Below are positions 9,410 to 35,852 of a stretch of 64,000 nucleotides of DNA, piece by piece. This DNA is from a virus. The first letter of the stretch is position 1. Each line of letters begins with the position of its first letter. The notes below the pieces were generated by a model that was not told the origin of the DNA, searched no databases, and worked only from the letters and a program-made list of their open reading frames with translations. A program made the position numbers and the translations under genes. The DNA lies in the IMG/VR virus record IMGVR_UViG_3300017963_000200, positions 74,639-138,638 of that record; one strand, written 5' to 3'.

Positions 9410-9424
9410 GAAAGGAGGAGGACG

Positions 9425-10756: not shown

Positions 10757-10814
10757 GCCGGGAGGCGCTGAAGGTCTCCCGGCCCATCCTGGGCCATAAC
10801 CCCGCGAGAGCGGG
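10757..10814 (+). promoter_or_regulatory. Two GC-rich stem-loops immediately after the putative capsid gene: GCCGGGAG-N11-CTCCCGGC at 10757-10783 and CCCGC-GAGA-GCGGG at 10801-10814. Possible transcript-stabilising or attenuating elements.
   Basis: Perfect 8-bp and 5-bp inverted repeats read from the sequence. Neither has a downstream U-run, so they are not classical intrinsic terminators. Confidence 0.35.
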
Positions 10815-11010
10815 AGGTGGGGTAACACCCTGGCACACCACGAGGAATCTGGATGTGGGTAATCGAGTTCCCGTCCTGGGGCCGGACGATACCGTTCTGT
10901 CCTATACCCACCCTGCCAGGGCAAGGAAACTGGTCAAGAACGGAAAGGCGGTCGTCGCCAACGGACGACCTTTCATCATTCGGTTAAACCGAGATCCCAG
11001 GGAGGACAAA

Positions 11011-21100: not shown

Positions 21101-21547
21101 ATGCCAGTTCCGAACACGACGATTCGTAGTAGCCACGCGGTATCTCTCCGCGCCGCCGGTACTACCATCGGCCAGATCCAGACCTGGGCACCGAACCAGT
21201 CTCGGACCGTCACGCCAGCCTACGAGCTTCGGGCGGAGACCTCCGGGGAGGTCATCGAGAACGTGCCCGGCAACGTCACCGGCCTCACCATCCAGGTATC
21301 CCGCTATGACCTGTTCGCGTCGAAGATGGAGCAGGTCTGGGGTACCCCGAAAGCGCTCTGGATGCTCACCGACCAGAACAACAAGATCGAGGTCGAGGAG
21401 AAGTGGAGCAACCCGGACGGCACTAGCGAGAAGTTCATCTACTTCGACTGCTGGTTCAGCCAGCTGGGGCGCAACCTCCAGGCGCAGGGCGACCGGATCG
21501 TGATGGTCAACGCGACGTTGAACTACGCTCGTGTGCGGCCCGTTTAA
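21101..21547 (+). CDS. Tail tube protein (148 aa), first of two paralogs.
   Basis: Strong RBS AAAGGGAGGAGG. Located immediately after the sheath gene. Paralog of 21561..22169. Confidence 0.65.
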   Translation: MPVPNTTIRSSHAVSLRAAGTTIGQIQTWAPNQSRTVTPAYELRAETSGEVIENVPGNVTGLTIQVSRYDLFASKMEQVWGTPKALWMLTDQNNKIEVEEKWSNPDGTSEKFIYFDCWFSQLGRNLQAQGDRIVMVNATLNYARVRPV

Positions 21548-21560: not shown

Positions 21561-22169
21561 ATGCCCGTACCCGCCACGCAGATCCGTACCTCTCATGCGA
21601 TCTCGATCAAGGCCGGGAACCAGATAATCGGTCACATCCAATCGTGGGCTCCCAATCAGGCGCGGGCGGTGCAACCGTTCTACGAGATCAGCGCTGTCGG
21701 CACCGGGGAGCCTTTCGAAAACGTTCCCGGCATCGCGACGGGCCTGACGATTCAGATTGGCCGGTACGATCTTTTCACCAACAAGATGGAGGAGGTGTGG
21801 GGGACGCCGAAACCGTTTTGGATGTTGACGGACCAACACAATCCCATCGACATCGAGGAGAAGTGGATTCGCTTCAAGAGCGACAAGGATCCTTCCATCC
21901 CGTGGCTCGACAAGAAGGCGGGAGATCCTTTCTCGTTCGGCAAGAAGCTCAACAAGAAGGTCGAACAGGCCACGGGAGCCATCTTGAGCGCCGCTGGGGT
22001 CAAGGATGATCTGGAGGACGTTCAGGTGGGTGCCGAGTACTACGTCGAGAAGTTCTGGTATTCCGGGTGCTGGTTCAGCCAGCTGGGTCGGAATCTCCAG
22101 GCGCAAGGTGATCGAATCGTGATGGTGCACGCCACGTTGAACTATACCAAAGTACGAATGATTTCGTAA
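21561..22169 (+). CDS. Tail tube protein paralog (202 aa) carrying an internal insertion of about 55 aa.
   Basis: N- and C-terminal regions about 65% identical to 21101..21547 (MPVP..TIR.SHA; ..CWFSQLGRNLQAQGDRIVMV.ATLNY..VR). Extra segment KWIRFKSDKDPSIPWLDKK...YYVEKFWYSG. Confidence 0.65.
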   Translation: MPVPATQIRTSHAISIKAGNQIIGHIQSWAPNQARAVQPFYEISAVGTGEPFENVPGIATGLTIQIGRYDLFTNKMEEVWGTPKPFWMLTDQHNPIDIEEKWIRFKSDKDPSIPWLDKKAGDPFSFGKKLNKKVEQATGAILSAAGVKDDLEDVQVGAEYYVEKFWYSGCWFSQLGRNLQAQGDRIVMVHATLNYTKVRMIS

Positions 22170-22171: not shown

Positions 22172-22204
22172 GGTGCCGTAGGCACCATACCCCGCTGATG
22201 CGGG
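22172..22204 (+). promoter_or_regulatory. Two stem-loops after the tube genes: GGTGCC-GTA-GGCACC (22172-22186) and CCCGC-TGAT-GCGGG (22191-22204).
   Basis: Perfect inverted repeats. The second shares the CCCGC-N4-GCGGG stem with the hairpin at 10801-10814. Confidence 0.35.
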
Positions 22205-22224
22205 AGAGAGGAGCGAAAGCCACC

Positions 22225-22758
22225 ATGTCCGAGGAAGAAGTCCAGAATCCAAAAATGATCCTCATGGATCTTGCCAGGGAACTAGACGGCGAGACCCTGG
22301 AGCATACCTGCATGGTTCACAACCACAAGTGGACGATGCGGCTGCTCAATGAGGAGGAAAGCAACTGGCGCAACGGGTTCGTCAACATGGGGACGCGGCT
22401 GTCGGCCATCACGTCGTGGAGGCTGCCGACACTGGCCATCGGCATCCGCGCCATCGACGGCGTCCCCATCTTCGAGTTCTTCAAGGAGCAGTGGTCGACT
22501 ACCGAGGAGCTGCGCAAGGCGCTCGAAACGATGGAAGGACGCGGCAAGTTCTCGCAGAAGTACTTCGCCGCCGAGCACCTTATGGAGTTCTTGTCGAGCC
22601 GATTCCCGGAGGTCTTGGAACCGCTGTGGGAGGAATGGCAGAAGCTCGAAGAAAGGAGAGAAGGGGCGCAGGCCTCGATAAAAAAATCCTTCGGGGAGAA
22701 TTCGGGAGAGGGCACGAAGCCCTCTGGGACCGAATCTTCCCCGTCTGGAGACGAATAA
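22225..22758 (+). CDS. Tail assembly chaperone, gpG-like (zero-frame product).
   Basis: Located between the tube and tape-measure genes. ATG 22225 with RBS GAGAGGAGCG. The ATG at 22198 lies inside a hairpin. Ends TAA at 22756-22758. Confidence 0.65.
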   Translation: MSEEEVQNPKMILMDLARELDGETLEHTCMVHNHKWTMRLLNEEESNWRNGFVNMGTRLSAITSWRLPTLAIGIRAIDGVPIFEFFKEQWSTTEELRKALETMEGRGKFSQKYFAAEHLMEFLSSRFPEVLEPLWEEWQKLEERREGAQASIKKSFGENSGEGTKPSGTESSPSGDE

Positions 22759-23516
22759 CATCGAGGCTGCAAATCAAGGCCAAGATCCTGGCCCGGAGGC
22801 GTATCCCGGTCGGCGATCCTCGTTTGAAAGGATCGAATGACACTCAATGGGTCTTCGAGCTGGAATCGATGAACCTGGAGGACGAAGAGAAATTCGAGCG
22901 GGCGAATGAAATCGCCAAGGTGGTCCGAACGGAGCTGCTCAACATGTTGGGGTTGAACCTGATGCCGGTCGAGGATGAAGAGACGGGTCTTCTGCGTGCG
23001 CCTGAAGTCGAGGAGTGTGTTCCGTTGGCCTTGGCCATCGGACGCGACGAGTTCGTTCAGATGGTTCTCGAAAAACGCGACGAATTCGCTACTCAGGAGC
23101 GCGAGCGCCGCAAGCTGGAGCTGGAGGAGGCCGGCATAGTCCCGACGTACCCGACCGAGGGAGACTTCGTGGAGATGACGCCCGAAGAGCTGGACGAGTT
23201 CATGAAAAGCGACAGCGATGTCGAGTTCGAGAATACGCCCGAAGAAGTGCGCAAATTTCTCGACTGGGGTTCCAAGGAGACGCAGCTGTACCTGGAGAAC
23301 CTCGTGCTCAACAAGGATGATATCGACGAGGGTTCCCTGGACCAACAGCCGGCGCGGACCCTCGGTCAAGCTCGGCGTGATCTCATTCAGGAGCTTCAGC
23401 GGGAGCGCCAGCAGGACGGCAAGTTGATTCCGGTCAGGATCGAATCGGATTCGATCCTGGGAGGCATTCCGGAGAAGCCGGAACGTAGCAGAATCACGGT
23501 GGAAACCAGCGAATGA
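22225..23516 (+). CDS. Tail assembly chaperone gpGT-like fusion product made by a programmed -1 ribosomal frameshift: join(22225..22686,22686..23516).
   Basis: The slippery heptamer A_AAA_AAA at 22680-22686 is in the correct phase of the upstream frame. The -1 frame is open to 23516, and the translation across the site reads ...ASIKK|ILRGEFGRG.... A 6-nt spacer is followed by a 13-bp imperfect stem (22693-22705 with 22730-22742) enclosing a GAGGGC-ACGAA-GCCCTC hairpin. Confidence 0.7.
22680..22742 (+). promoter_or_regulatory. Programmed -1 frameshift cassette: slippery site A_AAA_AAA plus downstream stimulatory stem-loop.
   Basis: Read directly from the sequence (see the fusion CDS above). 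Confidence 0.7.
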
Positions 23517-25813
23517 CCGATCCCAAGGAATACCTGCTGAAGTTCGATTTCTCCGAGTTCGAAGGAGAGGCCGATCGCGTCAGCCGGGCCTACACCGACT
23601 TCGGTTCCTCGGTAAGGGAGGTCGTCAACTCGGTTTCCAACGATCTGTCGGCCCTCCAACGGGAGGCGGGTGTCGTCTCGTCCTCGGTGGCCACGTTGAC
23701 TCCGCAGATCAACCGTTCCTTCCAGTCGGCCCGGATTCAGCTTGGCCATACTGTTCGGGGGATGGATGACATTGCTCGCCACGGGGACAAGATCGCCAAC
23801 GACATGACCCGGCTCTCGGGGATGCGCCTGGGCGCTCTCGTCAACGAAGGTGGCGCTCCTCCTGGCCAATCGAAGGCGGCTGCGGAGGCGGAAGCAGCGG
23901 TCGCCACGGCTGACGTGGCCAAGGAGACTTCCGAAACTTCGGAGAAACAGTCGAAGGACGTTGAAAAGCGTATGAAGGAGGCGGATGAGGCGTCCAAGAA
24001 GCAGACCGACGCCATCACGGCCTACATCAAGGCCGAGATCAGTTCCGCCAAGGGCGCGATTCGAGGTCTTCTTTCTCACGTTCCGGGAGGCGTTCTGAGC
24101 GGTGGCGTCATCTCCGGTCTCATCGGGGCGATGATCCTCGGCTACACGGAACGAGATCGTCTCCGGGCCGAGGCCGGCGAAGTTCGAAACGTCTTCGAGG
24201 CGACAGGAGAAGCCCTCTTCGGTGGCGAAGCGCGGAGAGCTACCCGTTATTTCGCCAACTTCCAGGAGAGAGCCCAGTGGTACTTCGGGGTCGGCAGGAA
24301 GGAGACCCAGGGCGTTCTCAAAATGATGGTCGATGCCGGCTACAGGTCCAAGGAGATCATGACCGCTTTCGACAAGGACCTGGGCCGCGTGGGCGACAAC
24401 GTCACCATCGCTTCCATCGCGGTCGACAAGCACTTCAATCAGGCCACCGGCACCTCGATGCAGGGCATCATTCAGATCACGACCGAGCTGGGTGACTCGC
24501 TCGACGTCGCCACTGATAAGTACGTTCGGATCGCCTTTGCGGGGCAGCGCAGCGCGATGGGGATCGAAAAGTTCACGAACGCGGTCCTCTCGGGGGCGTC
24601 CGCGATGCAGCAATACGGTGTAGATGTTGAAGACGTGGCCGATGTGATGGGCAAGATCCAACGCCACTACCAGGACATGGGTCTGAGTCCGCAGTATGCC
24701 GGCGATCAGGCTGCGAGGGTGGTGGGAGGTCTCACACGCGGTCTGGCGAGCCTCAGCCCCGGCATGAAGGCCGTTCTCGCCCAGAGGATGTTCCCGGAGC
24801 TGAGCGCCCTCGACGCCCTTCAGAAGTGGGAGGACGGCTTCCTACGGGCAGGGAAGGGAGAGGACAACAACTTCATGCTCCGTGCGACCACGGAGCTTCA
24901 GCAGTGGGCTACCGAAGGGGGTCGGGGGCGCGCCGAGGCGATCAAGGTCATGGAGATGCAGGGCCTCGACAATCGAACCGCTGCGACCCTTCACGATCTC
25001 GGCGGCAAGATCAAGGAGCAGAACAGTCTCCAGGCCCTCACCAACGATGAGATGAAGCGCCTGTCGGACGCTTTCAAGACGGAAGGCCAGCGTGTTTCGT
25101 CCTTGGAGAAGACGCAGAAACGCCTGCGCGAGGCCATCGGGCACATCGGACGCGGTCTGCTCAAGATCCTCGTGGGCATCCTGGGGGTGCTGGCGGTCGG
25201 TCTCAAGACTATCCCGCAGGTGATCCAGGCAGCTCTGGACAAGGATGTCAACAAGGCGGCTTCCGCCATCGCGGAGGCTGGAGCCCGGCAGTCGATGCTG
25301 TTCGCCCACATGAGCGCCGGGGCCAAGGACGTCATGACCGGAGGGGGACTTCTCAAGGATGCGCTCGGTGGAGAGTTCAAATCGCTGATCGATCCCATCG
25401 AGGCCGCGTTGAGCGAGAAGTTCGAGACTCCGCAGGTCGACTGGGGTGTAGCCGTCGAGCGGAAGGCTCGGGAGCTGCTGGGACAGCAACAAGGGGGCAC
25501 CAAGGCGGTTCGGCGCGGGATGGCAGCTCCGCGACCTAGCCCTGTCGGCCTTCAGCCGGGCCAGAGGGCCGTTCTGACCGGTGAGGCTCCCAGTGGTACC
25601 AAGAATGTCCTGCGCTCCGGTCAAGCACAGATGGGGAGCGTCAGCACGAGCGTGCAGGCGACTCCTCCCCCTCCGCCTTCGACTGGCAGGGGGACCGGCA
25701 TTGTCCCGACGACACAGCAGAAGATCACCCAGCAACAGCTGACGGAGACGAGGATTTACCAAGCCGAGCATGTGCTGACATCCAGCGGCAATACGATGGG
25801 TGCGGATCCCTGA
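23513..25813 (+). CDS. Tape measure protein-like protein 1 (766 aa).
   Basis: Follows the frameshifted chaperone pair. N-terminal coiled-coil, Gly-rich TM-like hairpin (GGVLSGGVISGLIGAMILGY), and a conserved central domain (IASIAVDKHFNQATGTSMQGI...AFAGQRSAMGIEKFTNAV...QYAGDQAARVVGGL) reminiscent of phage tape-measure / minor tail protein domains. Paralogous to the next two genes. Confidence 0.6.
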   Translation: MTDPKEYLLKFDFSEFEGEADRVSRAYTDFGSSVREVVNSVSNDLSALQREAGVVSSSVATLTPQINRSFQSARIQLGHTVRGMDDIARHGDKIANDMTRLSGMRLGALVNEGGAPPGQSKAAAEAEAAVATADVAKETSETSEKQSKDVEKRMKEADEASKKQTDAITAYIKAEISSAKGAIRGLLSHVPGGVLSGGVISGLIGAMILGYTERDRLRAEAGEVRNVFEATGEALFGGEARRATRYFANFQERAQWYFGVGRKETQGVLKMMVDAGYRSKEIMTAFDKDLGRVGDNVTIASIAVDKHFNQATGTSMQGIIQITTELGDSLDVATDKYVRIAFAGQRSAMGIEKFTNAVLSGASAMQQYGVDVEDVADVMGKIQRHYQDMGLSPQYAGDQAARVVGGLTRGLASLSPGMKAVLAQRMFPELSALDALQKWEDGFLRAGKGEDNNFMLRATTELQQWATEGGRGRAEAIKVMEMQGLDNRTAATLHDLGGKIKEQNSLQALTNDEMKRLSDAFKTEGQRVSSLEKTQKRLREAIGHIGRGLLKILVGILGVLAVGLKTIPQVIQAALDKDVNKAASAIAEAGARQSMLFAHMSAGAKDVMTGGGLLKDALGGEFKSLIDPIEAALSEKFETPQVDWGVAVERKARELLGQQQGGTKAVRRGMAAPRPSPVGLQPGQRAVLTGEAPSGTKNVLRSGQAQMGSVSTSVQATPPPPPSTGRGTGIVPTTQQKITQQQLTETRIYQAEHVLTSSGNTMGADP

Positions 25814-28224
25814 TGGATGGCGATCTGAAAATAGCGATTGACGTCGCGACTTTGGACCGGAGCACCGAGAACGCCTCTCGGGCATATACCAACTTCGGTG
25901 TCGCCGTTCGCTCGGTTGCCGCCGCCGTGGAGCGGGATATAACGCATCTACTCGACGAGGCGGCAGATGTCTCGTTGCCGTTGAAGCCGCTCATGCAGAC
26001 TGCCTCCACGTTGTATCCGGAGGCTGATTACATCTCGATGGAAAACTACCTGCGGCAGTGGGAACGTCAGGATCGCGCCATTTCAGACACCTTCGAGAAA
26101 CTCGGGTCGATCAAGCTCGGCAGTGACATCAGGGTTCCGCGCTCCGAGTTCGAACCGCCTCCTGTCGATATTCCGGTCGTGGAGGTCACTTTCGCTGCGA
26201 ACAAGGCCGATCAGGCTCTTCGGAAGGCGGAAGATTCGTTCGACGAGACAGAAGAGGCCGAAGACAAATCCATCAAGCGCATTTCCATGTGGCGACGGTT
26301 TGTGGAACGCGAGGTCAGATCGGCCAAGGGGGCCATCAAGGATCTCATCTCCCAGATTCCTGGCGGCATTGTCGGTGGTTTCGTCTCCGGTCTCATCGGC
26401 ACCATCATCCTGGGTTACCAGGAGCGCAACCGTCGTCGGGCCGAGATGGGGGAGATGTCCAACGTGTTCGCGGCGGGTCTCGACTCGATCTTCTCGACGG
26501 AAACGCGCAAGGCGGTCCGTTGGATGGGCAACTGGGCCGAGCGCGCTCAATGGCACTACGGCATCGCTCGGCAAGAGGTACAGAAGACCGTTGCCGAGAT
26601 GATCGATAACGGTTTCAAGAGTGCAGACTTGATCGAGACCTATGACCGGGGTCTCAAGTCGGCTGGCCGCAATGTCGTGGTCGCTTCCATTGCGCTGGAT
26701 CGGCACTTCAACTTCGCCACCGGTACCAGCATGGAGGAGATCGTGAGCTTCGTGCGCGAGTACGGGATGGAGCTTCGCGGGGCGACTGACTTCTTCTTCA
26801 AGATGTCGATGGCCGGTCAACGCAGCGGAATGGGGACGATGAACTTCATCCGGGCGGTCAAGTCCAGTCAGGACAGCTTGAGCCGGTTCGGGATCAACGC
26901 TGAGAACGTGGCCGTCCTGATGGAGGACGTCATCGGATTCTACGAGAGCATGGGGCTCAATCAGCGCTATGCCGGTCAGCAGGCTGTGGGCGTCGTCCAG
27001 GACCTCATGTCAGCCTTCTCCAACCTCGACAGCGGGATGAAGGTCGTCTTGGCCAGGAGGATGTACAACGACGAGGAGACGGACGCCTATTCGCTCCTGA
27101 TCCAGTTCCAGGACGGTCTGCGGCGCATCGCCGGAGGTGAGGAGGACCAATACCTGGAGAACTTGATTCGCTCCTACATCGAGGTCATGCGCGAGACCGG
27201 TCTCGGGGGTCGCTCCCGGATGATCCGTACCATCCAGCAGAACCTGGGTGTCCGCAATCGGACTGCGGCGCTCTTGTACGACGCGGGCGATCTCATCGCC
27301 AAAGGGGGGAAGCTCAAGGATCTTACCAAGGAGGAACGTTCCAACCTCAAACGTGCTTTCAAGGTCGAGGCCTCTCAGGTTTCGAGCCTGCATCGGACGC
27401 GCCGCGAGCTAGTACGGGGCATGGCCATGCTCGGGGAAGCTCTCACGGCCATTGTTGCTGACATTTTCGGCATTCTCGTGATCGGTGTTCGAAGCTTGCC
27501 GGCGCTCCATTGGGCTTGGCAGAATCGACAGCTCGACCGGGTGGTCGGTAACATCGTGGCCGAGCAACGGCAGCGCATTGCTGAAATCTCCGACCACTGG
27601 AAGAAGGGCGAGGAGGGAATCAACCTCGTGTCCAAGGCACTTGGCTCCGAATTCGCCGAGACCATCCAGCCGTTGATCGATGCTATTTCCGGCCCTGTGA
27701 AGGTTCCGAAGAGAGCTGCTCCGTGGACGGCTGCGGTGACGGAGCTGGAGGAGGCCTGGGCGCGGCGTGAGGAATATCGGCAGCTCGGAGAACGCTTCAA
27801 CAAGCTTTATCTCGACAAGGAGATCGAGGAGACCACCTTCGGCAGCATGCTGCACGACACCCCCTTGTGGGAAGCTCCGTTGGTCGGCGTGAAGTTGCCC
27901 TACCAGGACGAGTTCACGGGTGCGATGCTTCAGGCTACTTCCGATGCTGACATCGGTGGTCAGACCGAGTGGGCCAAGAAAAATCCGGGCAAAGTCGCGG
28001 AGATGCGCCGCAAAGTCAACCAAGGTTGGGAACTCGATCCGGTGACGGGCATCATGGAGAACCCCCAGACCGGAGAACGTTGGAGCCCGTCTGAAGGAAC
28101 TCTTCGTCGAGCTGCGGATCGGGACTATGGGGCGCTCCCGATTGAAGTGGGAAAGCCCAAAATTCCGCGTAGTACTGACGCGGTGAACAAGGCCGACAAG
28201 GCGGCTGCGGAGAATATCTTCTAA
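25813..28224 (+). CDS. Tape measure protein-like protein 2 (803 aa), paralog.
   Basis: Shares domain order and many identical blocks with 23513..25813 (KGAIKDLISQIPGGIVGGFVSGLIGTIILGY; ASIALDRHFNFATGTSMEEI; MAGQRSGMGTMNFIRAV; RYAGQQAVGVVQDL). Start overlaps the previous stop (TGATG). Confidence 0.6.
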   Translation: MDGDLKIAIDVATLDRSTENASRAYTNFGVAVRSVAAAVERDITHLLDEAADVSLPLKPLMQTASTLYPEADYISMENYLRQWERQDRAISDTFEKLGSIKLGSDIRVPRSEFEPPPVDIPVVEVTFAANKADQALRKAEDSFDETEEAEDKSIKRISMWRRFVEREVRSAKGAIKDLISQIPGGIVGGFVSGLIGTIILGYQERNRRRAEMGEMSNVFAAGLDSIFSTETRKAVRWMGNWAERAQWHYGIARQEVQKTVAEMIDNGFKSADLIETYDRGLKSAGRNVVVASIALDRHFNFATGTSMEEIVSFVREYGMELRGATDFFFKMSMAGQRSGMGTMNFIRAVKSSQDSLSRFGINAENVAVLMEDVIGFYESMGLNQRYAGQQAVGVVQDLMSAFSNLDSGMKVVLARRMYNDEETDAYSLLIQFQDGLRRIAGGEEDQYLENLIRSYIEVMRETGLGGRSRMIRTIQQNLGVRNRTAALLYDAGDLIAKGGKLKDLTKEERSNLKRAFKVEASQVSSLHRTRRELVRGMAMLGEALTAIVADIFGILVIGVRSLPALHWAWQNRQLDRVVGNIVAEQRQRIAEISDHWKKGEEGINLVSKALGSEFAETIQPLIDAISGPVKVPKRAAPWTAAVTELEEAWARREEYRQLGERFNKLYLDKEIEETTFGSMLHDTPLWEAPLVGVKLPYQDEFTGAMLQATSDADIGGQTEWAKKNPGKVAEMRRKVNQGWELDPVTGIMENPQTGERWSPSEGTLRRAADRDYGALPIEVGKPKIPRSTDAVNKADKAAAENIF

Positions 28225-31040
28225 TGGCGGATGTTGCCGATACTGCTCAGCTCGATAGTGTTCGGTACAAGTTCACCGAGCTGGGAGCCGCCGTCCGCGA
28301 TCTGGCCCGGCAGAATGAAGACCTTTTCAAGAAGACCGAGGATCAGCTCAGGTTCGGGTTCAACACGGCACTGTCCGATCTGACCGAGAACCCTGAGTTC
28401 GAAGAGACGGCCAAGCTGCTCGGGATCAGCAAGCGTTACGCCCAGCAGGTTTCGTCCACTTATGATGCCATTTCCGGCAGCATGGAGAAGTCCTTCGAGA
28501 CTTTCGACCAGACCGTTCAGAAGGCTGAGAAGAACTTCGAGAATCTCTCGAACGAAGCCGCCAATCTCGTTCGTGAGGGGGAGGACATCGCATCCAAGGT
28601 CGGCAAGGGGAAAGGCGAACGGGATGCCGACCAGCGCGCCGAGCGCAAGCGCGGAACGGTTCCGGGGGTTCCGGACCGCATCTCGAAGATCATCGTCTCC
28701 GAGATCAACACGCTCAAGTCTCGCGTTCGGGGGATGCTGTCCACCTTGAAGATCCCGACTCCCGGCAACATCTTGTCCGGTGCAATCGAGATCATGGCCT
28801 ACGGCTATCTCGAAAAGGACCGTATCCGGGCCGAGACCGGCGAAGTGAAGAACATCTTGATCGCGGCCTACGACGATGGCGTCCGAGGCGCGGTTCAGTC
28901 CGGCACGCGGCACATCGCCGGCATTCAGGAAACGTTTCAACGCTTCATGGGCATCAACCGTCAGGAGGTCCAGGCGGTCTCGCAGGCGTTCGTCGACGGC
29001 GGCTTGAGCGTGAGCCAGATGCTCGCCAAGGTCGATACCCAGATCAACAACGTCCAGAGCAGTGCGTTGACGGTCACCTTCGCTCTCGACAAGATGTTCG
29101 AGATCCCTGCGGGGGATTCGGCGAAGCGGATGGTCGGCTTGATGGCCGACTATGGAAAAAATGCCGATGAGGCCCGTGAGTCCTTGATCCAGATGTACAT
29201 GGTCGGCAAGCAGTCCGGGACCGGCGCGCTCCAGTTCGTTCGCAATGTCGAGACCGCCGGGGAGGAGCTGCGTCAGTTCGGCTACGACATCGACGACACC
29301 ATCAACCTGCTGGCCCATGTCCAAGAGGACTTTGCCGGCATCGGCGTCCCCAAGCAGTTCGCGGGACGACAAGCTGCCCTCGGTATCCAGCAAATCGCTT
29401 CGGGCATCACAAAGATGTCCGATAGCTGGAAGATCATCGTGGCCGAGCGTCTCGGCTACGGGAGGGGGCTCCAAGGGCGGCAGCGGATGATGGACGCCTT
29501 TGCACGGGTCCTGGAGCGCAAGAATACCAACGAGATAGTGCGCACCGTGCAGGCTGTCTATGACATCGCGATGGAAGCGGTCGGCGGTGCAGATGAAAAC
29601 CGTGCGCGCTACTACATCGAGACCCAGATGGGCTTCGGGTTCGAAGGTGCTCGTGTCGTGGCCAAGATCGGCAAGGATGTCAAGGAAGGGAAGGTCGTCG
29701 AGGCCGCGAAGAGTGCCAAGGAGGACATGGAGATCCTTCGAAGATCGTTCGGTATAGAAGCTCAGAAGCAGAGCAAGTTCGAACGTTTCATGAACCAATG
29801 GTTGAAAGGCTTGAGCAAAGTCGGCCAGGGGCTGCTGGGTCTCGTGGGCAATACTCTCGCCATGCTCATTGCTTATTTCAGGGCTCTCCCGGCGTATCTG
29901 GCGAATGCCGTCATGGGTCGTACCCAGGCGAACGAGCAGCTTGTCGCGAACCTGCACGCCTTCGATGTCCAGGCTGCGGCGCATACGGAAAAGATGAGCC
30001 GGGGCTTCGATCAGATGATCGCCGCGATGGGGAAGATGGGCGGTGATGTCCTGGGTTCGTCCCTCAAGTCCCTCAGGGCTGCCTGGAACTTCGATCCCAC
30101 CGCTGCGATGCAGCCCGGTGCAGGAGGCGGCGCTCCGGGAGCTGTCGGCGAGATGTGGCAGCCCACGCAGGCGACCGTTCAGTTCGCGCCGATCTCGTTG
30201 TCGGCCCTCACCGAGGGCGGCGCGGGGATCAAGCACGTCGTCAATGTCAGCGTTCCGGTGAAATCGGTCCAACGCGGTCCGGGGAGCGGTCGTGGCGGCG
30301 AATGGGTCGGCGGCGGTGTTTCGGTAATCGCGACGGGGGTCGATACGCAAGGGAACATCAATCTCTCCATCATGGGGAACTGCCCGCGCTGCGGTTTCAT
30401 CTTTGGATCCACCACGCCGACTTCCGAGACCGAGATCATGGGCGAAGGTGAGTATCGTGGTCTCGATGTCGAGGCCTTGGCGCGGGTTATCCAGCGGGAG
30501 ATCGGGGGCTATACCGGTAGGAATCGGAAGCTCGCCGCTGCCCACGCGCATGCTGTCCTCAACCAGGCCAAGCAGCGCGGCACCAAGGATCTCTACGAGG
30601 TCACTACGGGAGGCCTCGGGTGGGGACGACAGGGGGGCAAGCGGAGGTTCGCGACACCGACGCCTCCCACCGAGCAGACGGTGGAGTTCGCACGGAGCGT
30701 TCTACGTGGAGAGGTCGAGGATCCGACCGGTGGGCGTGCTACCACCTTCACGCATCAGGCGCTCGGGACTGAAATCCAAGGCGGCGCGTTCGCGCCGTTC
30801 GCGCGAGAATCGCAGATCGTGGCGGCGCTTCCGATGGGACGCGGCAAGACGGCCTTCTTCTTTACGGGCCGCAAGGACATCGAGAAGGAGGCTCCGCAAT
30901 ATCGTCAGACGCGCCGTCAGTACGAAAAGGCTCTCGCCGAACGCAAGTCAGCCGGCGTGGTGCCCTCGGCAACAGGTCAGACCGGTGTCATGCAGTACGG
31001 GGAGAAAGTGACGCGTAGACCCCAGGCACCGAAGGAGTGA
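28224..31040 (+). CDS. Tape measure protein-like protein 3 (938 aa), paralog with an extended Gly-rich C-terminus.
   Basis: Same architecture (SGAIEIMAYGYLEKDRIRAETGEVKNI; TFALDKMFEIPAGDSAKRM; VGKQSGTGALQFVRNV; QFAGRQAALGIQQI). TAATG overlap with the preceding gene. Confidence 0.6.
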   Translation: MADVADTAQLDSVRYKFTELGAAVRDLARQNEDLFKKTEDQLRFGFNTALSDLTENPEFEETAKLLGISKRYAQQVSSTYDAISGSMEKSFETFDQTVQKAEKNFENLSNEAANLVREGEDIASKVGKGKGERDADQRAERKRGTVPGVPDRISKIIVSEINTLKSRVRGMLSTLKIPTPGNILSGAIEIMAYGYLEKDRIRAETGEVKNILIAAYDDGVRGAVQSGTRHIAGIQETFQRFMGINRQEVQAVSQAFVDGGLSVSQMLAKVDTQINNVQSSALTVTFALDKMFEIPAGDSAKRMVGLMADYGKNADEARESLIQMYMVGKQSGTGALQFVRNVETAGEELRQFGYDIDDTINLLAHVQEDFAGIGVPKQFAGRQAALGIQQIASGITKMSDSWKIIVAERLGYGRGLQGRQRMMDAFARVLERKNTNEIVRTVQAVYDIAMEAVGGADENRARYYIETQMGFGFEGARVVAKIGKDVKEGKVVEAAKSAKEDMEILRRSFGIEAQKQSKFERFMNQWLKGLSKVGQGLLGLVGNTLAMLIAYFRALPAYLANAVMGRTQANEQLVANLHAFDVQAAAHTEKMSRGFDQMIAAMGKMGGDVLGSSLKSLRAAWNFDPTAAMQPGAGGGAPGAVGEMWQPTQATVQFAPISLSALTEGGAGIKHVVNVSVPVKSVQRGPGSGRGGEWVGGGVSVIATGVDTQGNINLSIMGNCPRCGFIFGSTTPTSETEIMGEGEYRGLDVEALARVIQREIGGYTGRNRKLAAAHAHAVLNQAKQRGTKDLYEVTTGGLGWGRQGGKRRFATPTPPTEQTVEFARSVLRGEVEDPTGGRATTFTHQALGTEIQGGAFAPFARESQIVAALPMGRGKTAFFFTGRKDIEKEAPQYRQTRRQYEKALAERKSAGVVPSATGQTGVMQYGEKVTRRPQAPKE

Positions 31041-31043: not shown

Positions 31044-31793
31044 ATGGCTGATTTCGGAACATGGTTCGTGGACACTTTCGTCGACGAGACGCAGCCGAAA
31101 CCGAGCACCGACAAGATTCTCGAACGGATCCTCAATCCCTACGAGGACATCGCGTATCGGGTGCCGTTCATGTTCACATCCGATCTCCGGACCGCCCAGA
31201 ACATTCCGCCAGTCCGGATGAAGGTGAACCCGCAGTCGGTCACGTTCACGCAGCAGAAGCGCATCACACGGCGAGATACCCAGAGCGGTGCGGTCTTCTT
31301 CCACTGGACGAATGCGCGGGGTCGTAACAACGACATCATTCAGATCCAGTTTTCGGGTCAGACCGGAAACATCAATCTTCGCAGCGGCGCGAAGAAGGCG
31401 AACTGGCTTTCCGATTCGCTCAAGCAGTTCCAGGAGTGGACGAAATCGGTCACCAAGCAGAAGGGGCTCGATGTCGCCAACTATTCCGGGGCTGCGAAGT
31501 TGGTCAACTTCTGGAATCTGTACAGTCTCACTCGGGAACCGATGATCGATCCCGTCAGCGGGATGCCGAACCAGTTTCACGTCCTCTACAGCAGCCCGAT
31601 CCTGGGCAATGCGATCATCGATTTCATCGGACACTTCGATCGCGTCATGGAGTTCACTGATGAGGCAACGGAGCCGTTCAACAAGAGCTATTCGTTCAGC
31701 TTCACGGCGCTCAGCTCAATGCCGTCGATGGATGATGTTTACAAGTACATCTCCCTGTCCATAGGCCGGGAGTTCTTCAACGACTTGGAGTAA
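31044..31793 (+). CDS. Tail/baseplate assembly protein (249 aa), function unknown.
   Basis: RBS GAAGGAGTGATAG. First gene after the tape-measure genes. Confidence 0.45.
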   Translation: MADFGTWFVDTFVDETQPKPSTDKILERILNPYEDIAYRVPFMFTSDLRTAQNIPPVRMKVNPQSVTFTQQKRITRRDTQSGAVFFHWTNARGRNNDIIQIQFSGQTGNINLRSGAKKANWLSDSLKQFQEWTKSVTKQKGLDVANYSGAAKLVNFWNLYSLTREPMIDPVSGMPNQFHVLYSSPILGNAIIDFIGHFDRVMEFTDEATEPFNKSYSFSFTALSSMPSMDDVYKYISLSIGREFFNDLE

Positions 31794-31794: not shown

Positions 31795-34233
31795 ATGGTC
31801 ACGGAAATCGACCAGCAGTCGGTCATCGCCACGGATGGCATCTACCGCGCCGCGTTCCCGGCTTTCCGTGTATTCGTCTTCGGGCAGGAAGTATCCGGGG
31901 ACGTCGCGGAGATCCGAGTCAACCATGCGGGTGGCAGTCTCGACCGTTCGCCGGGAAACTGTGCCATCACGTTGGTCAATCCGCTCGACAAGTACATTCT
32001 CGATCATGACGACATGCTCGCTTTGAGCAACTCACGGGAGACGCTGGTCTCGACCTTGGAAAAGAACGTCCAGGACTACAAAGGCACCGAACAGTACCTG
32101 CGTGGGACTGCCGGCGAAGATCCCACGGTGCTCAAGGAATTCCTGCGGCTCATCACGGCTCAACCGGGGAAGTACGCCGAGCTGACGGCAGAGGTCGAAG
32201 CCGCCTACGGCGCGCTGGAGACGGCGCAGCTCAACTACCAGCAGTACTGGGAGGAAGGGAAGGTCCCGGACGGCATCAAGTACGAGGTCATCAAGGAAAA
32301 GGCGTTCAAGCTCTCCCAGGCCGATGAAGAGGACATCAAGTGGCACATCGAGAAGTTCGGTGAGGATTTCGACTTCTCCAACTTCAACTTCAAGTATATC
32401 TATCCTTTCCAAGAGGGTGACAGTGTTTTCCATCCGAACGATCCGATCCGGGTGGCGTTTCGAGACCCCTTCAATCCGCGCATCTGGTACTGGATGTTCA
32501 CCGGCTTCCTCGACTCCGCCACGGAGGATGTGGGGGTCAATCAGGAATCGCTCGTGACGATCACGGGGACCGATGTCTCCAAGATGGCGAGGTACAGCCT
32601 CATCCAGCTGGACACGGGCATCTTGGACCAGTCCATCCGGGATCTGTTCGCCAATGTTCCGGGTATTGCGGGGACGACTGCGGAGACCAAGTTCGTACCG
32701 ATGCAGCAGCTGTTCGCCGGCTTTACCATTTTCGAGATCTTGGAACTCTTGTTCTTTGGTCTCAACACCTTCATCGGCTCGCTCGACGAGACGACCGACC
32801 GGTTCATCGCGGGGCTGTCGGAAGAGGATATCAGGACCTACCTGATGGACAACCTCGGGAAGAGCCCCAGCGATGTGGATTCGATGTCGCCGACCGAACG
32901 CATCGCGCTCCTCCGCGAGTTCCGTCTCGAACTCAAGGCGAGCCGGTTCACGGGTGCGAACATTCCTCCCATCTCCACGCCGCAAGGCATCACGTTCAAG
33001 CGCAGGAACAACAAGTACGGCACCCACGCCTACTTCGTGGGCGATGAGATCGATGATCTGGACGCCGCCATCGGCGGTGCAGACAGTCACATCAGTCACG
33101 GCAATCTGAAGAAGCTGAACGATGTGATTCACCACCGGGTGCGCCGTGAGGATCTGGTGAACATGTCCGCTGACGCTGCGCCCACCTCGTGGGATGCGCG
33201 GCCCGAGGAGATCATCACCGAGATTGGGACGAATCCAGACAAGTATCCGGTCGGAGGGGGTCGCGTGATCTACGTCGCGCCCTCTACGCTCGGTTCCCAG
33301 CTGGAGAAGGGAGCGCTCGACGAGACCGTCGTCAATTCGGTGGCGATGCACTCCGAGTTCAAGGACCGTCTCACGTTCCTCTACGACCTTGCGGAGCGCA
33401 TCGAGTTCTGTTGCTACGCCACACCGAAGGGCGACATGGTCTTCGAGATGCCCTTCTACGACTTCGATCCGTGGCTGTTCGATGACGAAGATTTCCACAT
33501 TAGTAACGCCGAGATCCAGGCGGAGGTCAGCATCGACCAGAAACTGCTCAGCGAATGGGAGGCCTCCAGTGATTATACGGAAGACGAACTGAAGGAGATG
33601 CTCAGCTTGCGTACCAGGATTGAGCTGGAACGCGAAGGTTTTCTCCTGGACGACGAGGACGTGGAGGATTTCAGCTATATCAACCATTTCACCATCGAGA
33701 AACACGAAACGTTGGGATACTCCAACTCGATGAACGACCAGGGGATGATCACGGCCTACCGCGCTCTGCCGAACATCATCCGTAACTACGAGCAGGGCAA
33801 TGATCCCAACAGCCGTGTCTACGAATACGTCGTGGCACCCGGTCTCGCACCGATTCTGGGCTTCCGTCTCGCCGAAGGAAGTCCTTGGGGATTCACGACG
33901 GGACAGACGACCGCGCGGCTATATGCGGCGCTGGAGCTGCGGCGCACGAATGCCGAGGCGCGGAACCTCGGTCTCCAGATCGTGCCCAAGTTTGGCCTGA
34001 TGGTGAACCGTCCGCTTTATTGGCGGCAGCGGAACTACATCGCCAATATTGTGAGTAGCCAGCACAGCATAGTCTGGAACTCCAGCTGCGACAGCATGAT
34101 CAACTTGAACCATGTCAAGGGTTGGACGGGAAGCCTCGATGGCGACAAGATGGAGAAGTTCATCTACTTCGGCGGAGACATGCCGTTCAACCTGTCACGC
34201 CTCGTCTTCAAGAAGCAGGGTGGGAGTAGCTGA
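31795..34233 (+). CDS. Large baseplate/tail hub-like protein (812 aa).
   Basis: Position between the tape-measure genes and the spike gene. No motif recognised. Confidence 0.4.
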   Translation: MVTEIDQQSVIATDGIYRAAFPAFRVFVFGQEVSGDVAEIRVNHAGGSLDRSPGNCAITLVNPLDKYILDHDDMLALSNSRETLVSTLEKNVQDYKGTEQYLRGTAGEDPTVLKEFLRLITAQPGKYAELTAEVEAAYGALETAQLNYQQYWEEGKVPDGIKYEVIKEKAFKLSQADEEDIKWHIEKFGEDFDFSNFNFKYIYPFQEGDSVFHPNDPIRVAFRDPFNPRIWYWMFTGFLDSATEDVGVNQESLVTITGTDVSKMARYSLIQLDTGILDQSIRDLFANVPGIAGTTAETKFVPMQQLFAGFTIFEILELLFFGLNTFIGSLDETTDRFIAGLSEEDIRTYLMDNLGKSPSDVDSMSPTERIALLREFRLELKASRFTGANIPPISTPQGITFKRRNNKYGTHAYFVGDEIDDLDAAIGGADSHISHGNLKKLNDVIHHRVRREDLVNMSADAAPTSWDARPEEIITEIGTNPDKYPVGGGRVIYVAPSTLGSQLEKGALDETVVNSVAMHSEFKDRLTFLYDLAERIEFCCYATPKGDMVFEMPFYDFDPWLFDDEDFHISNAEIQAEVSIDQKLLSEWEASSDYTEDELKEMLSLRTRIELEREGFLLDDEDVEDFSYINHFTIEKHETLGYSNSMNDQGMITAYRALPNIIRNYEQGNDPNSRVYEYVVAPGLAPILGFRLAEGSPWGFTTGQTTARLYAALELRRTNAEARNLGLQIVPKFGLMVNRPLYWRQRNYIANIVSSQHSIVWNSSCDSMINLNHVKGWTGSLDGDKMEKFIYFGGDMPFNLSRLVFKKQGGSS

Positions 34234-35852
34234 TGGCCGGTCGTTCCAACGCGAATCCGAACTCGTCGCCCTCCCTGCGTGGGAGAGCGCGCCACAATGC
34301 CTTCTACAGCTCTCTTCATCGAGTTCGGGTGACCGATCTGCACATCGAACGGGGAACCGTCGAGGTGACACCCCTCAGCGGCGGCACTCCGTATGAGGTT
34401 CTGATGCCGTTGGTGGGGCTGTCGATTCCTCCGCCGCAGACTTCCGAAGACAACAACTTCGCCCGGTCCTCCTGGGGAGTCTACTACCCCCAGGTGGATG
34501 ACATCCTCGTCGTGGGCTTCGACACGCTCGGTTTTCCGATGGCGCTTGGTTTCAGTGCCGTCGATTTCAATGTGATGAAACGCCGCGATGATGCTTTGGA
34601 TGAGCGTGGGGGCATCGGTTGGGCCGATGCTTCCGGCAAGCGGTTGCAACCGGGTGATGTTTCGTTCCGGTCGGCGCGCAACTCCAGCATCTACCTGGGA
34701 GATCGTGCCCGACTCGGGAGCGGCCCCCATTCGATCACGTTGGACAAACCCAACGGAGAGACCGTCATCCAGTCGGACATCGTCCATACTCGTTACGGGG
34801 CTGCCGGCGAAAAACGCGAGGGATCTGCGCGTCGGATCCTGGTGCCCGGAGTCGATACTCAGGAGAGCTATATCTACGGTATCTTCGGGACGGTTGCGCA
34901 GGAGCATACCAACTACGTGCGTCGCGGCGCGATCACGGCTCCTGGCGGACAGTTGCTGATGGTGCAGGAGTCGCGCGGAGAAATCATCGACGACCTGACC
35001 GGCCTCATCATGGTGCCAGCGACTTCGTATCCGGATCTCGCGGTCGCGCTCGCCGGCACCGGGGCTCGGAAGTTGACCACTGTGAAGGATGACGGCGCAG
35101 GCGTTGTCGACATGTATGTCGAGGTGGTAGATAACCTCGGCAATCGGGGGATTTCGGCCAAGACCGCTCTCGGCTTCCAGTGGTTCACTCCGGCAGCAAC
35201 CTGGACCATCTTGAACAACCTCGTCAACTGGACGACGAGCAGTACGTACAGTCTCACTGCGGGAGCCAGCATGTCGCTCACCGCAGGCACGGCGCTCACT
35301 GCCAGCGCAGGAGCCGCCTTGAGCTTGACGGCTGGTGCAGCGCTTACCGCGACTGCCGGAGCGACGATGGGGTTGACGGCGACCGGCGCGATGACGCTGA
35401 CTGCCCCTTCAATCACGTTGGCATCCGGTGTCCTCAACCTGGGGGCGAGCCCGGTGGTCGCGACCGCGAAGGACGCGCTCACTTTCAACGCGACCGACCT
35501 CACGATGGTGGCCACGGCGGCGATGGAGCTGGTGGCGACCGGCGAGATTGGTATCGACACGGCGGCGAAGCTCGTGCTGATCGCCGCCACCCAGATCGAC
35601 ATCGGAGCCCCGATTGTCAATCTCGGAGGTGCTGCGGCTACGGAATTCTTGGTGAAGGGAACGACTTTCATCACGGAACTGACCACTTTCATGACGGCGC
35701 TCAACACGTTCTTTGCCGCTTTCGCGGCTGATCCCGCGCTGAACGGTGTGCTTCCGGCCACGAAGAGTGCGCTTGGAGCGCTCATTCCGTTCGGCATCGA
35801 TTTCCAGGCGAGTCTGGCGACCGCGTTGTCGACAGTCTCGAAGACGGTGTAG
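34233..35852 (+). CDS. Baseplate central spike protein (539 aa), gpV / Mu gp45-like: N-terminal OB-fold-like region plus Ala/Thr/Gly-rich beta-helix repeats.
   Basis: Repeats LTAGASMSLTAGTALTASAGAALSLTAGAALTATAGATMGLTATGAMTLTAP. N-terminus RVRVTDLHIERGTVEVTPLSGGTPYEVLMP resembles the OB-fold of spike proteins. Confidence 0.55.
   Translation: MAGRSNANPNSSPSLRGRARHNAFYSSLHRVRVTDLHIERGTVEVTPLSGGTPYEVLMPLVGLSIPPPQTSEDNNFARSSWGVYYPQVDDILVVGFDTLGFPMALGFSAVDFNVMKRRDDALDERGGIGWADASGKRLQPGDVSFRSARNSSIYLGDRARLGSGPHSITLDKPNGETVIQSDIVHTRYGAAGEKREGSARRILVPGVDTQESYIYGIFGTVAQEHTNYVRRGAITAPGGQLLMVQESRGEIIDDLTGLIMVPATSYPDLAVALAGTGARKLTTVKDDGAGVVDMYVEVVDNLGNRGISAKTALGFQWFTPAATWTILNNLVNWTTSSTYSLTAGASMSLTAGTALTASAGAALSLTAGAALTATAGATMGLTATGAMTLTAPSITLASGVLNLGASPVVATAKDALTFNATDLTMVATAAMELVATGEIGIDTAAKLVLIAATQIDIGAPIVNLGGAAATEFLVKGTTFITELTTFMTALNTFFAAFAADPALNGVLPATKSALGALIPFGIDFQASLATALSTVSKTV

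What the first reader, a model, noticed from the sequence alone, without database searches (positions are those of the whole stretch)
23513..31040. Three tandem, paralogous tape-measure-like genes (766 + 803 + 938 aa)
Immediately after the G/GT chaperone pair there are three consecutive ORFs, coupled by TGATG/TAATG overlaps. They share the same architecture (divergent coiled-coil N-terminus, Gly-rich hydrophobic hairpin, then a conserved ~300-aa TMP-like core) and many identical peptide blocks. A phage normally has a single tape measure gene that sets tail length. A triplicated TMP of about 2.5k residues in total is unusual. Either all three co-assemble into a long tail, or some copies have been repurposed, for example as ejected or membrane-channel proteins.
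Basis: partly seen in the sequence, partly recalled or inferred. Interest (0 to 1): 0.75.

Follow-up and report, generated by a model that had tools for sequence, protein, structure and literature searches.

The report
Three tandem paralogous tape measure genes
An uncultivated jumbo phage with a contractile tail carries three old, diverged copies of its tail-length "tape measure" gene in a row. Its relatives share the arrangement, I found no earlier description of it, and it suggests the ruler inside the tail is built from three different chains rather than three identical ones.

Summary
ORFs A (23513-25813, 766 aa), B (25813-28224, 803 aa) and C (28224-31040, 938 aa) are abutting paralogs (BLASTP E 2e-115, 4e-48, 9e-39). 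They follow a tail-chaperone pair with a conserved A_AAA_AAA -1 frameshift site, and precede a tube-initiator-like gene in a jumbo-myophage structural module.

The tape-measure (TMP) assignment is supported by position and by fold. Foldseek gives 58 viral hits at E<=1e-3, and the named ones are nearly all TMP or minor tail proteins. By sequence the three genes stay below Pfam and PHROG thresholds.

The array is old and kept. Nine distinct metagenomic lineages have A+B+C in the same order as three orthologous clades. Three lineages have two genes (A-like + C). The nearest GenBank relative (Rctr197k) and Bacillus phage G have one.

My best explanation, at about 0.4 confidence, is a hetero-oligomeric ruler with one chain of each paralog and only C bearing the lysin. 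The rivals are an end-to-end ruler for a roughly 375 nm tail, and one ruler plus two ejected accessory proteins. Sequence alone cannot separate them. I rate it a new variant of a known kind, of moderate interest.

The parts
18585..21080 (+). Tail sheath (831 aa)
   Evidence: tblastn: 40% identity to Rctr197k gene 065; 23% (E 3e-5) to Bacillus phage G gp178, annotated 'tail sheath'.
21101..21547 (+). Tail tube paralog 1 (148 aa)
   Evidence: phrog_985 E 4.5e-6. The L010 and L024 orthologs carry a weak PF26461 Phi812_tail_tube hit. Similar to phage G gp179/gp180.
21561..22169 (+). Tail tube paralog 2 (202 aa)
   Evidence: phrog_985 E 9e-6. Paralogous to tube 1. Present in all 3-copy genomes and absent in L010 and L024.
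22198..22758 (+). Tail assembly chaperone G (186 aa)
   Evidence: Position. Orthologs at 52-67% identity in all clade loci. Contains the slippery site.
22680..22686 (+). Slippery heptamer A_AAA_AAA for the -1 frameshift
   Evidence: In the X_XXY_YYZ register of the G frame. The -1 frame is open from 22353 to 23516. The identical heptamer and frame relation occur in L002, L004, L006, L008, L009 and L010.
22686..23516 (+). T extension read in the -1 frame (GT fusion of about 439 aa)
   Evidence: Open -1 frame ending in a TGA that overlaps the ATG of A. The fusion itself is inferred.
23513..25813 (+). TMP paralog A (766 aa)
   Evidence: AF2 model is all-alpha with core pLDDT 80-90. Foldseek hits to annotated TMPs. 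Orthologs come first in the array in 9 lineages.
24086..24142 (+). A: Gly-rich hydrophobic segment (aa 192-210)
   Evidence: Kyte-Doolittle 19-aa window score 1.72.
25157..25213 (+). A: second hydrophobic, TM-like segment (aa 549-567)
   Evidence: KD score 2.16. The equivalent segment is present in every paralog and in Rctr197k 071.
25813..28224 (+). TMP paralog B (803 aa)
   Evidence: B clade has 99% NJ bootstrap. Hydrophobic segments at aa 182-200 and 539-557.
28224..31040 (+). TMP paralog C (938 aa), which carries the lysin
   Evidence: C clade has 100% bootstrap and includes the second gene of the 2-copy genomes. PF10145 E 0.0057 at aa 283-367.
30303..30410 (+). C: small beta module with a W-x-GGG ... 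GNCPRCG (CxxC) motif (aa 694-729)
   Evidence: Invariant G696, G718, C720, P721, C723 and G724, plus W694, G697 and N719 conserved in >=90%, across 21 C-type sequences. Beta strands in the model, at low-to-moderate pLDDT. Function unknown.
30438..30950 (+). C: SleB-type (Hydrolase_2) lytic transglycosylase domain (about aa 739-909)
31044..31793 (+). Tube-initiator-like protein (249 aa)
   Evidence: PF23980 Phage_tail_tube_init E 2.5e-5, just below cutoff. phrog_1011. Follows the array in every locus.
31795..34233 (+). Conserved 812-aa tail or baseplate protein, function unassigned
   Evidence: Syntenic ortholog in all loci. No family hit.
34233..35852 (+). Possible baseplate hub protein (539 aa)
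   Evidence: phrog_4540 'baseplate hub and tail lysozyme' E 1.3e-4, weak.

Best explanation
A, B and C are three anciently duplicated tape measure proteins of a contractile-tailed jumbo phage, and they work together as one hetero-oligomeric ruler. The tightly coupled genes would be made in similar amounts, and the single G/GT chaperone pair would hold them soluble. One chain of each (or two of each, if the ruler is hexameric) would lie side by side in the tube lumen, in the place that three identical chains occupy in other tails. Tail length would then be set by one chain length, about 115-140 nm, and not by the sum.

On infection the bundle would be expelled. The single SleB-type domain on C would cut peptidoglycan, and the hydrophobic segments of all three chains would insert into the membrane to help form the DNA conduit.

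Shown: paralogy, TMP slot and fold, the lysin on C only, and conservation and orthology of the three genes. Inferred: co-assembly, stoichiometry, parallel register, and the membrane role.
For: (1) Each paralog is a complete TMP-like protein, not a fragment. Each has the N-terminal motif, a helical spacer, a core of 336-347 residues between landmarks and a TM-like segment, all colinear.

(2) Solved TMPs are homotrimers that span the tube (diffocin, PMC10996793; three TMPs in 80alpha, PMC10747895). A duplicated chain would therefore co-assemble with its parent from the start.

(3) All three keep a conserved N-terminal island: mean pairwise identity is 33-48% in the first 30 aa against 10-26% in the next 150. 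This fits three N-termini doing the same job at the same end.

(4) The three genes fall into three well-supported orthologous clades in fixed order in 9 lineages that have diverged to 28-59% identity (NJ bootstrap A 96, B 99, C 100). All three are therefore under purifying selection and are not redundant.

(5) Start and stop codons overlap by 1 nt here and overlap or lie within about 10 nt in relatives, which fits coupled expression.

(6) Only C carries a lysin, and that module is swapped among C orthologs (PF07486, PF05951, PF08291, PF01551). This indicates a division of labour among the chains.

(7) The poorly conserved N-terminal spacer keeps its length: A 180+/-2, B 171+/-3, C 171+/-8 residues. 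It is shorter in all three paralogs of L008 and L019 (mean r 0.76, permutation p 0.0007). That signal rests on those two genomes only.
Against: There is no direct evidence of co-assembly or stoichiometry. The C-terminal tails of A and B are unconserved (2-10% pairwise identity) and unlike that of C. In solved tails the TMP C-termini form a symmetric bundle with the hub or spike.

In the 2-copy genomes the N-motif-to-core spacing differs by about 30 residues between the two paralogs (192-197 against 160-165), which argues against strict register. The length covariation vanishes without L008 and L019 (mean r 0.06).

B-type sequences are rare among the family members retrieved (14 of 177), so many relatives may manage with two genes. 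That sample is biased, because two of the searches were seeded with A and C.
Confidence: 0.4

Rival explanations
1. One true ruler plus two accessory ejected proteins. C, which is always present, always last and carries the lysin, forms the homotrimeric tape measure. A and B are TMP-derived passengers stored in the tube lumen or baseplate. They would be ejected to build the periplasm- and membrane-spanning conduit, as the first reader suggested with 'repurposed' copies.
For: C-type genes are present in every 2- and 3-copy genome and split off first (100% bootstrap). Only C has a conserved C-terminal module. A and B have the stronger hydrophobic segments, including the Gly-rich one that is weak in C. 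Their C-terminal tails are unconserved, as expected if they do not dock to the hub.
Against: A and B keep the full TMP architecture, the same core length and the same N-terminal motif as C. Paralogs of a trimer-former must evolve to avoid mixing, and nothing suggests they have. The lumen has little room for two extra proteins of about 800 aa beside a full-length trimer.
Confidence: 0.25
2. Serial ruler. The three proteins, each presumably a homotrimer, join end to end in gene order, with the lysin end of C at the tip. Tail length would follow the sum of 2507 residues, about 375 nm at 0.15 nm per residue. Each duplication would then have lengthened the tail by one unit.
For: The related sheath, tube and chaperone module of Bacillus phage G is followed by a single 2893-aa TMP of similar total size. 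The 0.15 nm per residue rule comes from PMC3556154. Gene order puts the lysin-bearing protein last, as expected for the tip end. The graded series of 1, 2 and 3 genes exists among relatives.
Against: A new whole-gene duplicate does not lengthen a tail unless new end-to-end contacts evolve. The conserved N-terminal motif in all three contrasts with three unrelated and unconserved C-termini, so no conserved head-to-tail interface is visible. Phage G gp183 matches the family core only once (residues 1186-1389), so it is not three units in series. I know of no precedent for a non-covalently concatenated ruler.
Confidence: 0.15
3. Interchangeable TMP isoforms with no fixed stoichiometry. Mixed or alternative trimers form at random or under regulation, giving virions with different ejected payloads, for example for different host envelopes or to escape host sensors of TMPs.
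For: Copy number varies among relatives (1, 2 or 3), so no single number is essential. The lysin module on C is swapped frequently, which points to pressure from the host envelope.
Against: Three distinct orthologous clades have kept a fixed order over deep divergence, which argues for distinct and non-interchangeable roles. The genes are coupled, not separately regulated.
Confidence: 0.1
4. The genes are not tape measure proteins. They could be another class of helical tail or baseplate protein that merely occupies this position.
For: No curated Pfam or PHROG threshold is reached. A PDB sequence search finds only generic coiled coils. Foldseek TM-scores are low, 0.2-0.3.
Against: The slot after a conserved G/GT frameshift pair is diagnostic (rule as stated in PMC3556154). 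Three independent TMP models give weak hits. Of the 58 Foldseek hits at E<=1e-3, the named ones are almost all TMP or minor tail proteins. A family HMM matches the annotated TMP of phage G. No other TMP candidate lies between the tube genes and the baseplate genes.
Confidence: 0.05

Closest known systems
TP901-1 / lambda gpH-type tail tape measure proteins (Pfam PF10145 PhageMin_Tail core, PF20155 TMP_3)
   Same: Gene slot after the G/GT frameshift chaperones. All-alpha build with a central core domain and hydrophobic segments. Predicted fold matches annotated TMPs.
   Different: Sequence similarity is sub-threshold. There are three diverged paralogs where known phages have a single gene.
Bacillus phage G gp183 (2893-aa 'tail protein with lysin activity; tapemeasure')
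   Same: Same module order: sheath, two tube-like genes, frameshifted chaperones, TMP. The sheath is distantly homologous. The family HMM matches gp183 residues 1186-1389. It also carries lysin activity, according to its annotation.
   Different: It is one giant gene with a single core, not three genes of about 800 aa each with its own core.
Virus Rctr197k gene 071 (KX853510, the closest GenBank relative)
   Same: Syntenic structural module: MCP 58%, sheath about 36-40% and tube 44% identity. One 669-aa ORF in the same slot has the same 341-residue core spacing and a TM-like segment.
   Different: Single copy, about 16% identity to each of A, B and C. No C-terminal lysin was recognised. Different slippery heptamer, CCCTTTA.
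Diffocin TMP (CD1366) and the 80alpha TMP, with structurally resolved tape measures
   Same: They give the expected arrangement: a three-chain helical bundle that spans the tube, plus a predicted globular domain (PMC10996793, PMC10747895).
   Different: Those are homotrimers of one gene product. Here three different chains are available.
TMPs carrying peptidoglycan hydrolase modules (TM4 Rpf motif, phiCbK gp95 CHAP domain)
   Same: C ends in a muralytic domain, as cited for other TMPs in PMC3556154.
   Different: The domain here is SleB-type (Hydrolase_2). It sits on only one of three paralogs and is exchanged for M15 or M23 peptidases in orthologs.
SleB spore cortex lytic transglycosylase catalytic domain (PDB 4FET, 4F55; Pfam PF07486)
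   Different: 18% identity. The window's own sequence gives no PF07486 hit at E 0.05. It is fused to a TMP and preceded by a CxxC beta module.

Membership tests
Phage tail tape measure protein (functional class) | Gene lies immediately downstream of a tail assembly chaperone pair made by a programmed -1 frameshift (G/GT) | tested here: met
   In-frame A_AAA_AAA at 22680-22686 and an open -1 frame to 23516 that overlaps the ATG of A. Conserved in 7 of 7 clade genomes.
Phage tail tape measure protein (functional class) | Located between the tube genes and the tube-initiator or baseplate genes | tested here: met
   Order is sheath, tube x2, G/GT, A, B, C, PF23980-like initiator, baseplate J-like.
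Phage tail tape measure protein (functional class) | Largely alpha-helical protein with hydrophobic or TM-like segments | tested here: met
   In the AF2 model of A every secondary-structure element is a helix. Hydrophobic segments lie near residues 190 and 535-570.
Phage tail tape measure protein (functional class) | Predicted fold resembles annotated TMPs | tested here: met
   Foldseek against BFVD gives 58 hits at E<=1e-3, best 1.4e-6, and the named ones are nearly all TMP or minor tail proteins. TM-scores are only 0.2-0.3, as expected for flexible helical proteins.
Phage tail tape measure protein (functional class) | Protein length proportional to tail length, and residence as a trimer or hexamer in the tube lumen | not testable with these tools
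   The phage is uncultivated, so there is no EM or proteomics.
Pfam PF10145 PhageMin_Tail / PF20155 TMP_3 / phrog_167 | Score above the curated threshold of the family model | tested here: not met
   PF10145 E 0.0057, 17 bits against a cutoff of 33.2, on C only. PF20155 best E 3.4e-4 in 2 of 20 members. phrog_167 E 0.0095 on B only.
Pfam PF07486 Hydrolase_2 (SleB/CwlJ cell wall hydrolase), C-terminus of C | Sequence match to the family model | tested here: inconclusive
   The window's C gives no hit at E 0.05. Two of 20 family members scanned (C-type orthologs) hit at up to 1.4e-6. Nine of 30 C-type homologs have a precomputed PF07486 hit. The aligned region is conserved.
Pfam PF07486 Hydrolase_2 (SleB/CwlJ cell wall hydrolase), C-terminus of C | SleB catalytic-domain fold | tested here: met
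Pfam PF07486 Hydrolase_2 (SleB/CwlJ cell wall hydrolase), C-terminus of C | Conserved acidic residue in the first helix of the domain | tested here: met
   Glu759 of C is invariant in 21 aligned C-type proteins. That this is the catalytic Glu rests on my own knowledge of SleB.
G/GT tail assembly chaperones | Slippery X_XXY_YYZ heptamer in the 0 frame with an overlapping -1 ORF that extends the protein | tested here: met
   No Pfam or PHROG family hit for G or T.

The most novel reading that the evidence does not exclude
The tail ruler of this jumbo-phage clade is an obligate heterotrimer (or 2:2:2 hexamer) of three paralogous tape measure chains. It would have arisen from a homotrimer by two successive gene duplications, with labour divided so that only one chain carries an exchangeable cell-wall lysin. 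This would be the first tape measure built from non-identical chains.
Probability: 0.4. Interest if true: 0.7.

Novelty: new variant of a known kind. Interest (0 to 1): 0.55.

Why it matters
Tape measure proteins are the textbook molecular ruler. In every tail resolved so far the ruler is made from a single gene product. A clade in which two or three diverged paralogs have been kept in fixed order gives a natural test of how rulers evolve by duplication. The outcome could be a heteromeric bundle, an extended ruler or spun-off ejected proteins.

The array also affects annotation. These jumbo-phage TMPs fall below Pfam and PHROG thresholds. At least one recent metagenomic study of large phages (of a different lineage, not linked to this clade) reported finding no TMP (PMC12619734). 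The family has 372 clusters at 50% identity. The swappable lysin module on only one chain is a compact example of modular evolution at the tail tip.

Tried and rejected
1. Sequence-family assignment. Pfam and PHROGs on the three proteins and on 20 family members gave only sub-threshold TMP hits and assorted coiled-coil noise. An hmmsearch of a 20-sequence profile against PDB sequences found only designed or viral coiled coils.

2. tblastn of A and C against 50,697 phage records found no match.

The metagenome scan returned only two loci that were already known.

5. Classifying 177 family proteins by best BLAST hit gave C 84, A 65, A-like 14 and B 14. Of these, 64 were ambiguous and the sampling was biased, so I did not use it as a copy-number census.

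6. Length covariation as a test of parallel register looked significant at first (p 0.0007) but is carried by two genomes. I rejected it as strong evidence.

7. The order of the A/B duplication relative to the 2-copy lineages is unresolved (A+A-like 76% against A+B 20% bootstrap).

8. Recent duplication or assembly artefact is rejected. Paralogs share only 24-35% identity, and the array recurs on independent contigs from JGI, ENA, Logan and NCBI.

9. A split gene or pseudogene is rejected. Each ORF is a complete homolog, not a fragment.
Full report
**Observation**

The window carries three abutting + strand ORFs: A 23513-25813 (766 aa), B 25813-28224 (803 aa) and C 28224-31040 (938 aa). The junctions are cccTGATGg and ttcTAATGg, and the upstream ORF overlaps A by ATGA.

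| Pair | Identity | Aligned length | BLASTP E |
|---|---|---|---|
| A-B | 35% | 652 aa | 2e-115 |
| A-C | 27% | 482 aa | 4e-48 |
| B-C | 24% | 468 aa | 9e-39 |

The three proteins are colinear:
- a short N-terminal motif (L-x-x-D ... Y/F-T-x-F/L-G);
- a variable helical spacer of about 170-180 residues;
- a Gly-rich hydrophobic segment, clear in A and B and weak in C;
- a core of 336-340 residues between invariant glycines;
- a second hydrophobic, TM-like segment near residues 535-570.

After that they diverge completely.

**Context**

The window is the structural module of a large phage with a contractile tail. Its exact proteins sit on a 188,555-bp metagenomic contig.
- Portal: 1107-4253 (phrog_16240, E 1e-71).
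- Prohead protease: 5862-6779.
- Major capsid protein: 9425-10735 (phrog_2522, E 4e-58).
- Sheath: 18585-21080, distantly similar to phage G gp178, annotated 'tail sheath'.
- Two paralogous tube genes.
- A chaperone gene, then A, B and C.
- A tube-initiator-like gene (PF23980, E 2.5e-5).
- Baseplate genes, including a Baseplate_J-like wedge (phrog_6, E 1.5e-19).

The closest GenBank record is the uncultured 'Virus Rctr197k' (MCP 58% identity). More distant capsid relatives are jumbo phages: phiRSL1, Bacillus phage G, Lu11 and Yoloswag.

**G/GT chaperones**

The 186-aa ORF 22198-22758 contains an in-frame A_AAA_AAA at 22680-22686, and the -1 frame is open from before that site to 23516. The same heptamer (TAAAAAAATCCT), the same register and the same -1 ORF occur in all six other clade genomes examined. 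Rctr197k has CCCTTTA in the equivalent place. In long-tailed phages the gene after such a pair is the tape measure gene, as stated in PMC3556154 citing Xu et al..

**Are they tape measure proteins?**

By sequence the evidence is only suggestive:
- PF10145, E 0.0057, on C.
- PF20155 TMP_3, best E 3.4e-4, in 2 of 20 family members.
- phrog_167, E 0.0095, on B.

All are below curated cutoffs.

An HMM I built from 190 family sequences matches the annotated TMP of phage G (gp183) once, at residues 1186-1389, with domain E 5.8e-7 in an 11-protein search.

An AF2 model of A (50-sequence alignment, mean pLDDT 67.7, core residues 200-640 at 80-90) is entirely helical. Foldseek against BFVD returns 58 hits at E<=1e-3, and the named ones are almost all 'tape measure protein' or 'minor tail protein', including a TP901-family core. 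TM-scores are low (0.2-0.3), as expected for such proteins.

No other TMP candidate lies between the tube and baseplate genes. I accept the functional class but not membership of any curated sequence family.

**The C-terminus of C**

C-type proteins share a W-x-GGG ... GNCPRCG beta module followed by a domain that aligns with Hydrolase_2. The window's own sequence misses PF07486 at E 0.05 and Foldseek against PDB finds nothing.

Among 30 C-type homologs the precomputed C-terminal domains differ: PF07486 in nine, PF05951 (M15) in five, PF08291 together with PF05951 in one of those five, and PF01551 (M23) in one. The lysin module has therefore been exchanged. A and B have no such domain, and their tails are essentially unconserved (2-10% mean pairwise identity).

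**Distribution**

The family has no homolog by tblastn in 50,697 phage records. It is large in metagenomes: 372 clusters at 50% identity with E<=1e-3, and 177 at E<=1e-30.

I examined the gene neighbourhood in every long contig I could reach.

| Genes in the TMP slot | Where seen | Sizes (aa) |
|---|---|---|
| Three (A+B+C, same order) | 9 distinct lineages: window, L002, L004, L006, L008, L009, L013, L019, L025 | e.g. 777+768+945, 790+796+963, 794+785+1024 |
| Two (A-like + C-like) | 3 lineages: L010, L021, L024 | 781+949, 784+928, 785+914 |
| One | Rctr197k | 669 |
| One | Phage G | 2893 |

Sheath identity to the window falls in the same order: 60-74%, then 55-57%, then about 36-40%.

A bootstrapped NJ tree (657 columns, 200 replicates) gives three orthologous clades:
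- A 96%, B 99%, and C including the 2-copy genomes 100%.
- A+A-like+B together, 100%.

The C / non-C split therefore came first. Whether the 2-copy lineages predate the A/B duplication or lost B is unresolved (A+A-like 76% against A+B 20%). Within-clade identities are 28-59% and between-clade identities 15-38%. All three genes have thus been kept under selection for a long time.

**How it most likely works**

Full-length TMP density in diffocin is a coiled-coil homotrimer that spans the tube, and 80alpha has three TMP C-termini in the tip (PMC10996793, PMC10747895). A duplicate of a trimer-forming chain co-assembles with its parent by default.

Several features fit a hetero-oligomeric ruler with one chain of each paralog:
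- long-term retention of complete, colinear paralogs;
- a shared N-terminal island (33-48% identity against 10-26% in the spacer);
- identical core length;
- tight gene coupling;
- a lysin on one chain only.

At 0.15 nm per residue (rule as used in PMC3556154) that predicts a tail of about 115-140 nm. A serial arrangement predicts about 375 nm.

I tested one prediction of in-register assembly. The sequence-variable N-terminal spacer has a conserved length (A 180+/-2, B 171+/-3, C 171+/-8). It is shorter in all three paralogs of L008 and L019 (mean r 0.76, permutation p 0.0007). The signal disappears without those two genomes (r 0.06), so it amounts to one or two evolutionary events.

Points against the hetero-oligomer:
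- The C-termini of A, B and C are unrelated, and those of A and B are unconserved.
- In the 2-copy genomes the two spacers differ by about 30 residues.

I put the hetero-oligomer at about 0.4, 'C is the ruler and A/B are ejected accessory proteins' at 0.25, a serial ruler at 0.15, interchangeable isoforms at 0.1 and 'not TMPs' at 0.05. The membrane-conduit role of the hydrophobic segments is inferred from what is known of other TMPs, not shown here.

**Novelty**

Four full-text searches found no description of paralogous multi-gene tape measures. Hits for 'two tape measure' or 'three TMPs' refer to chaperone pairs or to three copies of one protein.

The components are known kinds: TMP, G/GT chaperones and a SleB-type lysin. 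The conserved two- or three-paralog array is a new variant. The mechanism cannot be settled from sequence, and the phages are uncultivated. This limits both confidence and immediate impact, so I rate interest as moderate.

Noticed in passing
window 1107-4253: The portal protein (phrog_16240, E 1.4e-71; 1048 aa) is interrupted by an intein with a LAGLIDADG homing endonuclease. PF14528 hits aa 678-760 (E 2.4e-12) and Intein_splicing hits weakly across 537-835.
   Followed up: partly
window 10753-11679: A 308-aa ORF with an RRXRR domain (PF14239, E 2.3e-8) lies directly after the major capsid gene. It is probably a homing-type endonuclease. Rctr197k has a similar sequence at the same place.
   Followed up: no
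window 21101-21547 and 21561-22169: There are two paralogous tail tube genes (148 and 202 aa, the second with an internal insertion). Both are kept in all 3-copy genomes, in Rctr197k and in phage G (gp179/gp180). The 2-copy genomes L010 and L024 have a single tube gene, but L021 has two. The link to TMP copy number is therefore imperfect and unexplained.
   Followed up: partly
window 30303-30410 (C aa 694-729): A conserved W-x-GGG ... GNCPRCG module (two Cys only, beta strands in the model) sits between the TMP part and the SleB domain of every C-type protein, even where the lysin domain differs. Its function is unknown. It could be a metal knuckle or a docking element.
   Followed up: partly
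C-termini of A- and B-type proteins (e.g. window 25780-25810; L002, L004, L006, L009, L013): Many A and B orthologs end in a short [ST]-x-M-G-x(2-4) motif (NTMGADP, PRMGTP, STMGAL, TRMGAR) within otherwise unconserved tails. The window's B ends in ENIF instead. It might be a processing or docking signal.
   Followed up: no
window 51119-52690: A single 523-aa protein fuses a 5'-3' exonuclease (PF02739, E 1.6e-27, and PF01367) to a C-terminal uracil-DNA-glycosylase-superfamily domain (PF03167, E 1.2e-23).
   Followed up: no
window 6680-10924 (- strand): A 1414-aa minus-strand ORF is a shadow of the high-GC + strand genes (607-aa protein, 256-aa protein, MCP) and is not a gene. Several other long minus-strand ORFs in 5.8-14.8 kb and opposite A, B and C are likewise shadows.
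   Followed up: partly
L008 1881-3071 (- strand) and L008 4400-7540: In one relative a TnpB/Cas12f1-like gene (PF07282) sits inside the structural module. The sheath there is 1046 aa against about 830 aa elsewhere, through an inserted domain.
   Followed up: no
L001 (Rctr197k) 28063-30072: The single TMP-slot gene of Rctr197k is annotated only as a misc_feature 'similar to hypothetical protein', although it is an uninterrupted 669-aa ORF. It should be annotated as the tape measure gene.
   Followed up: partly
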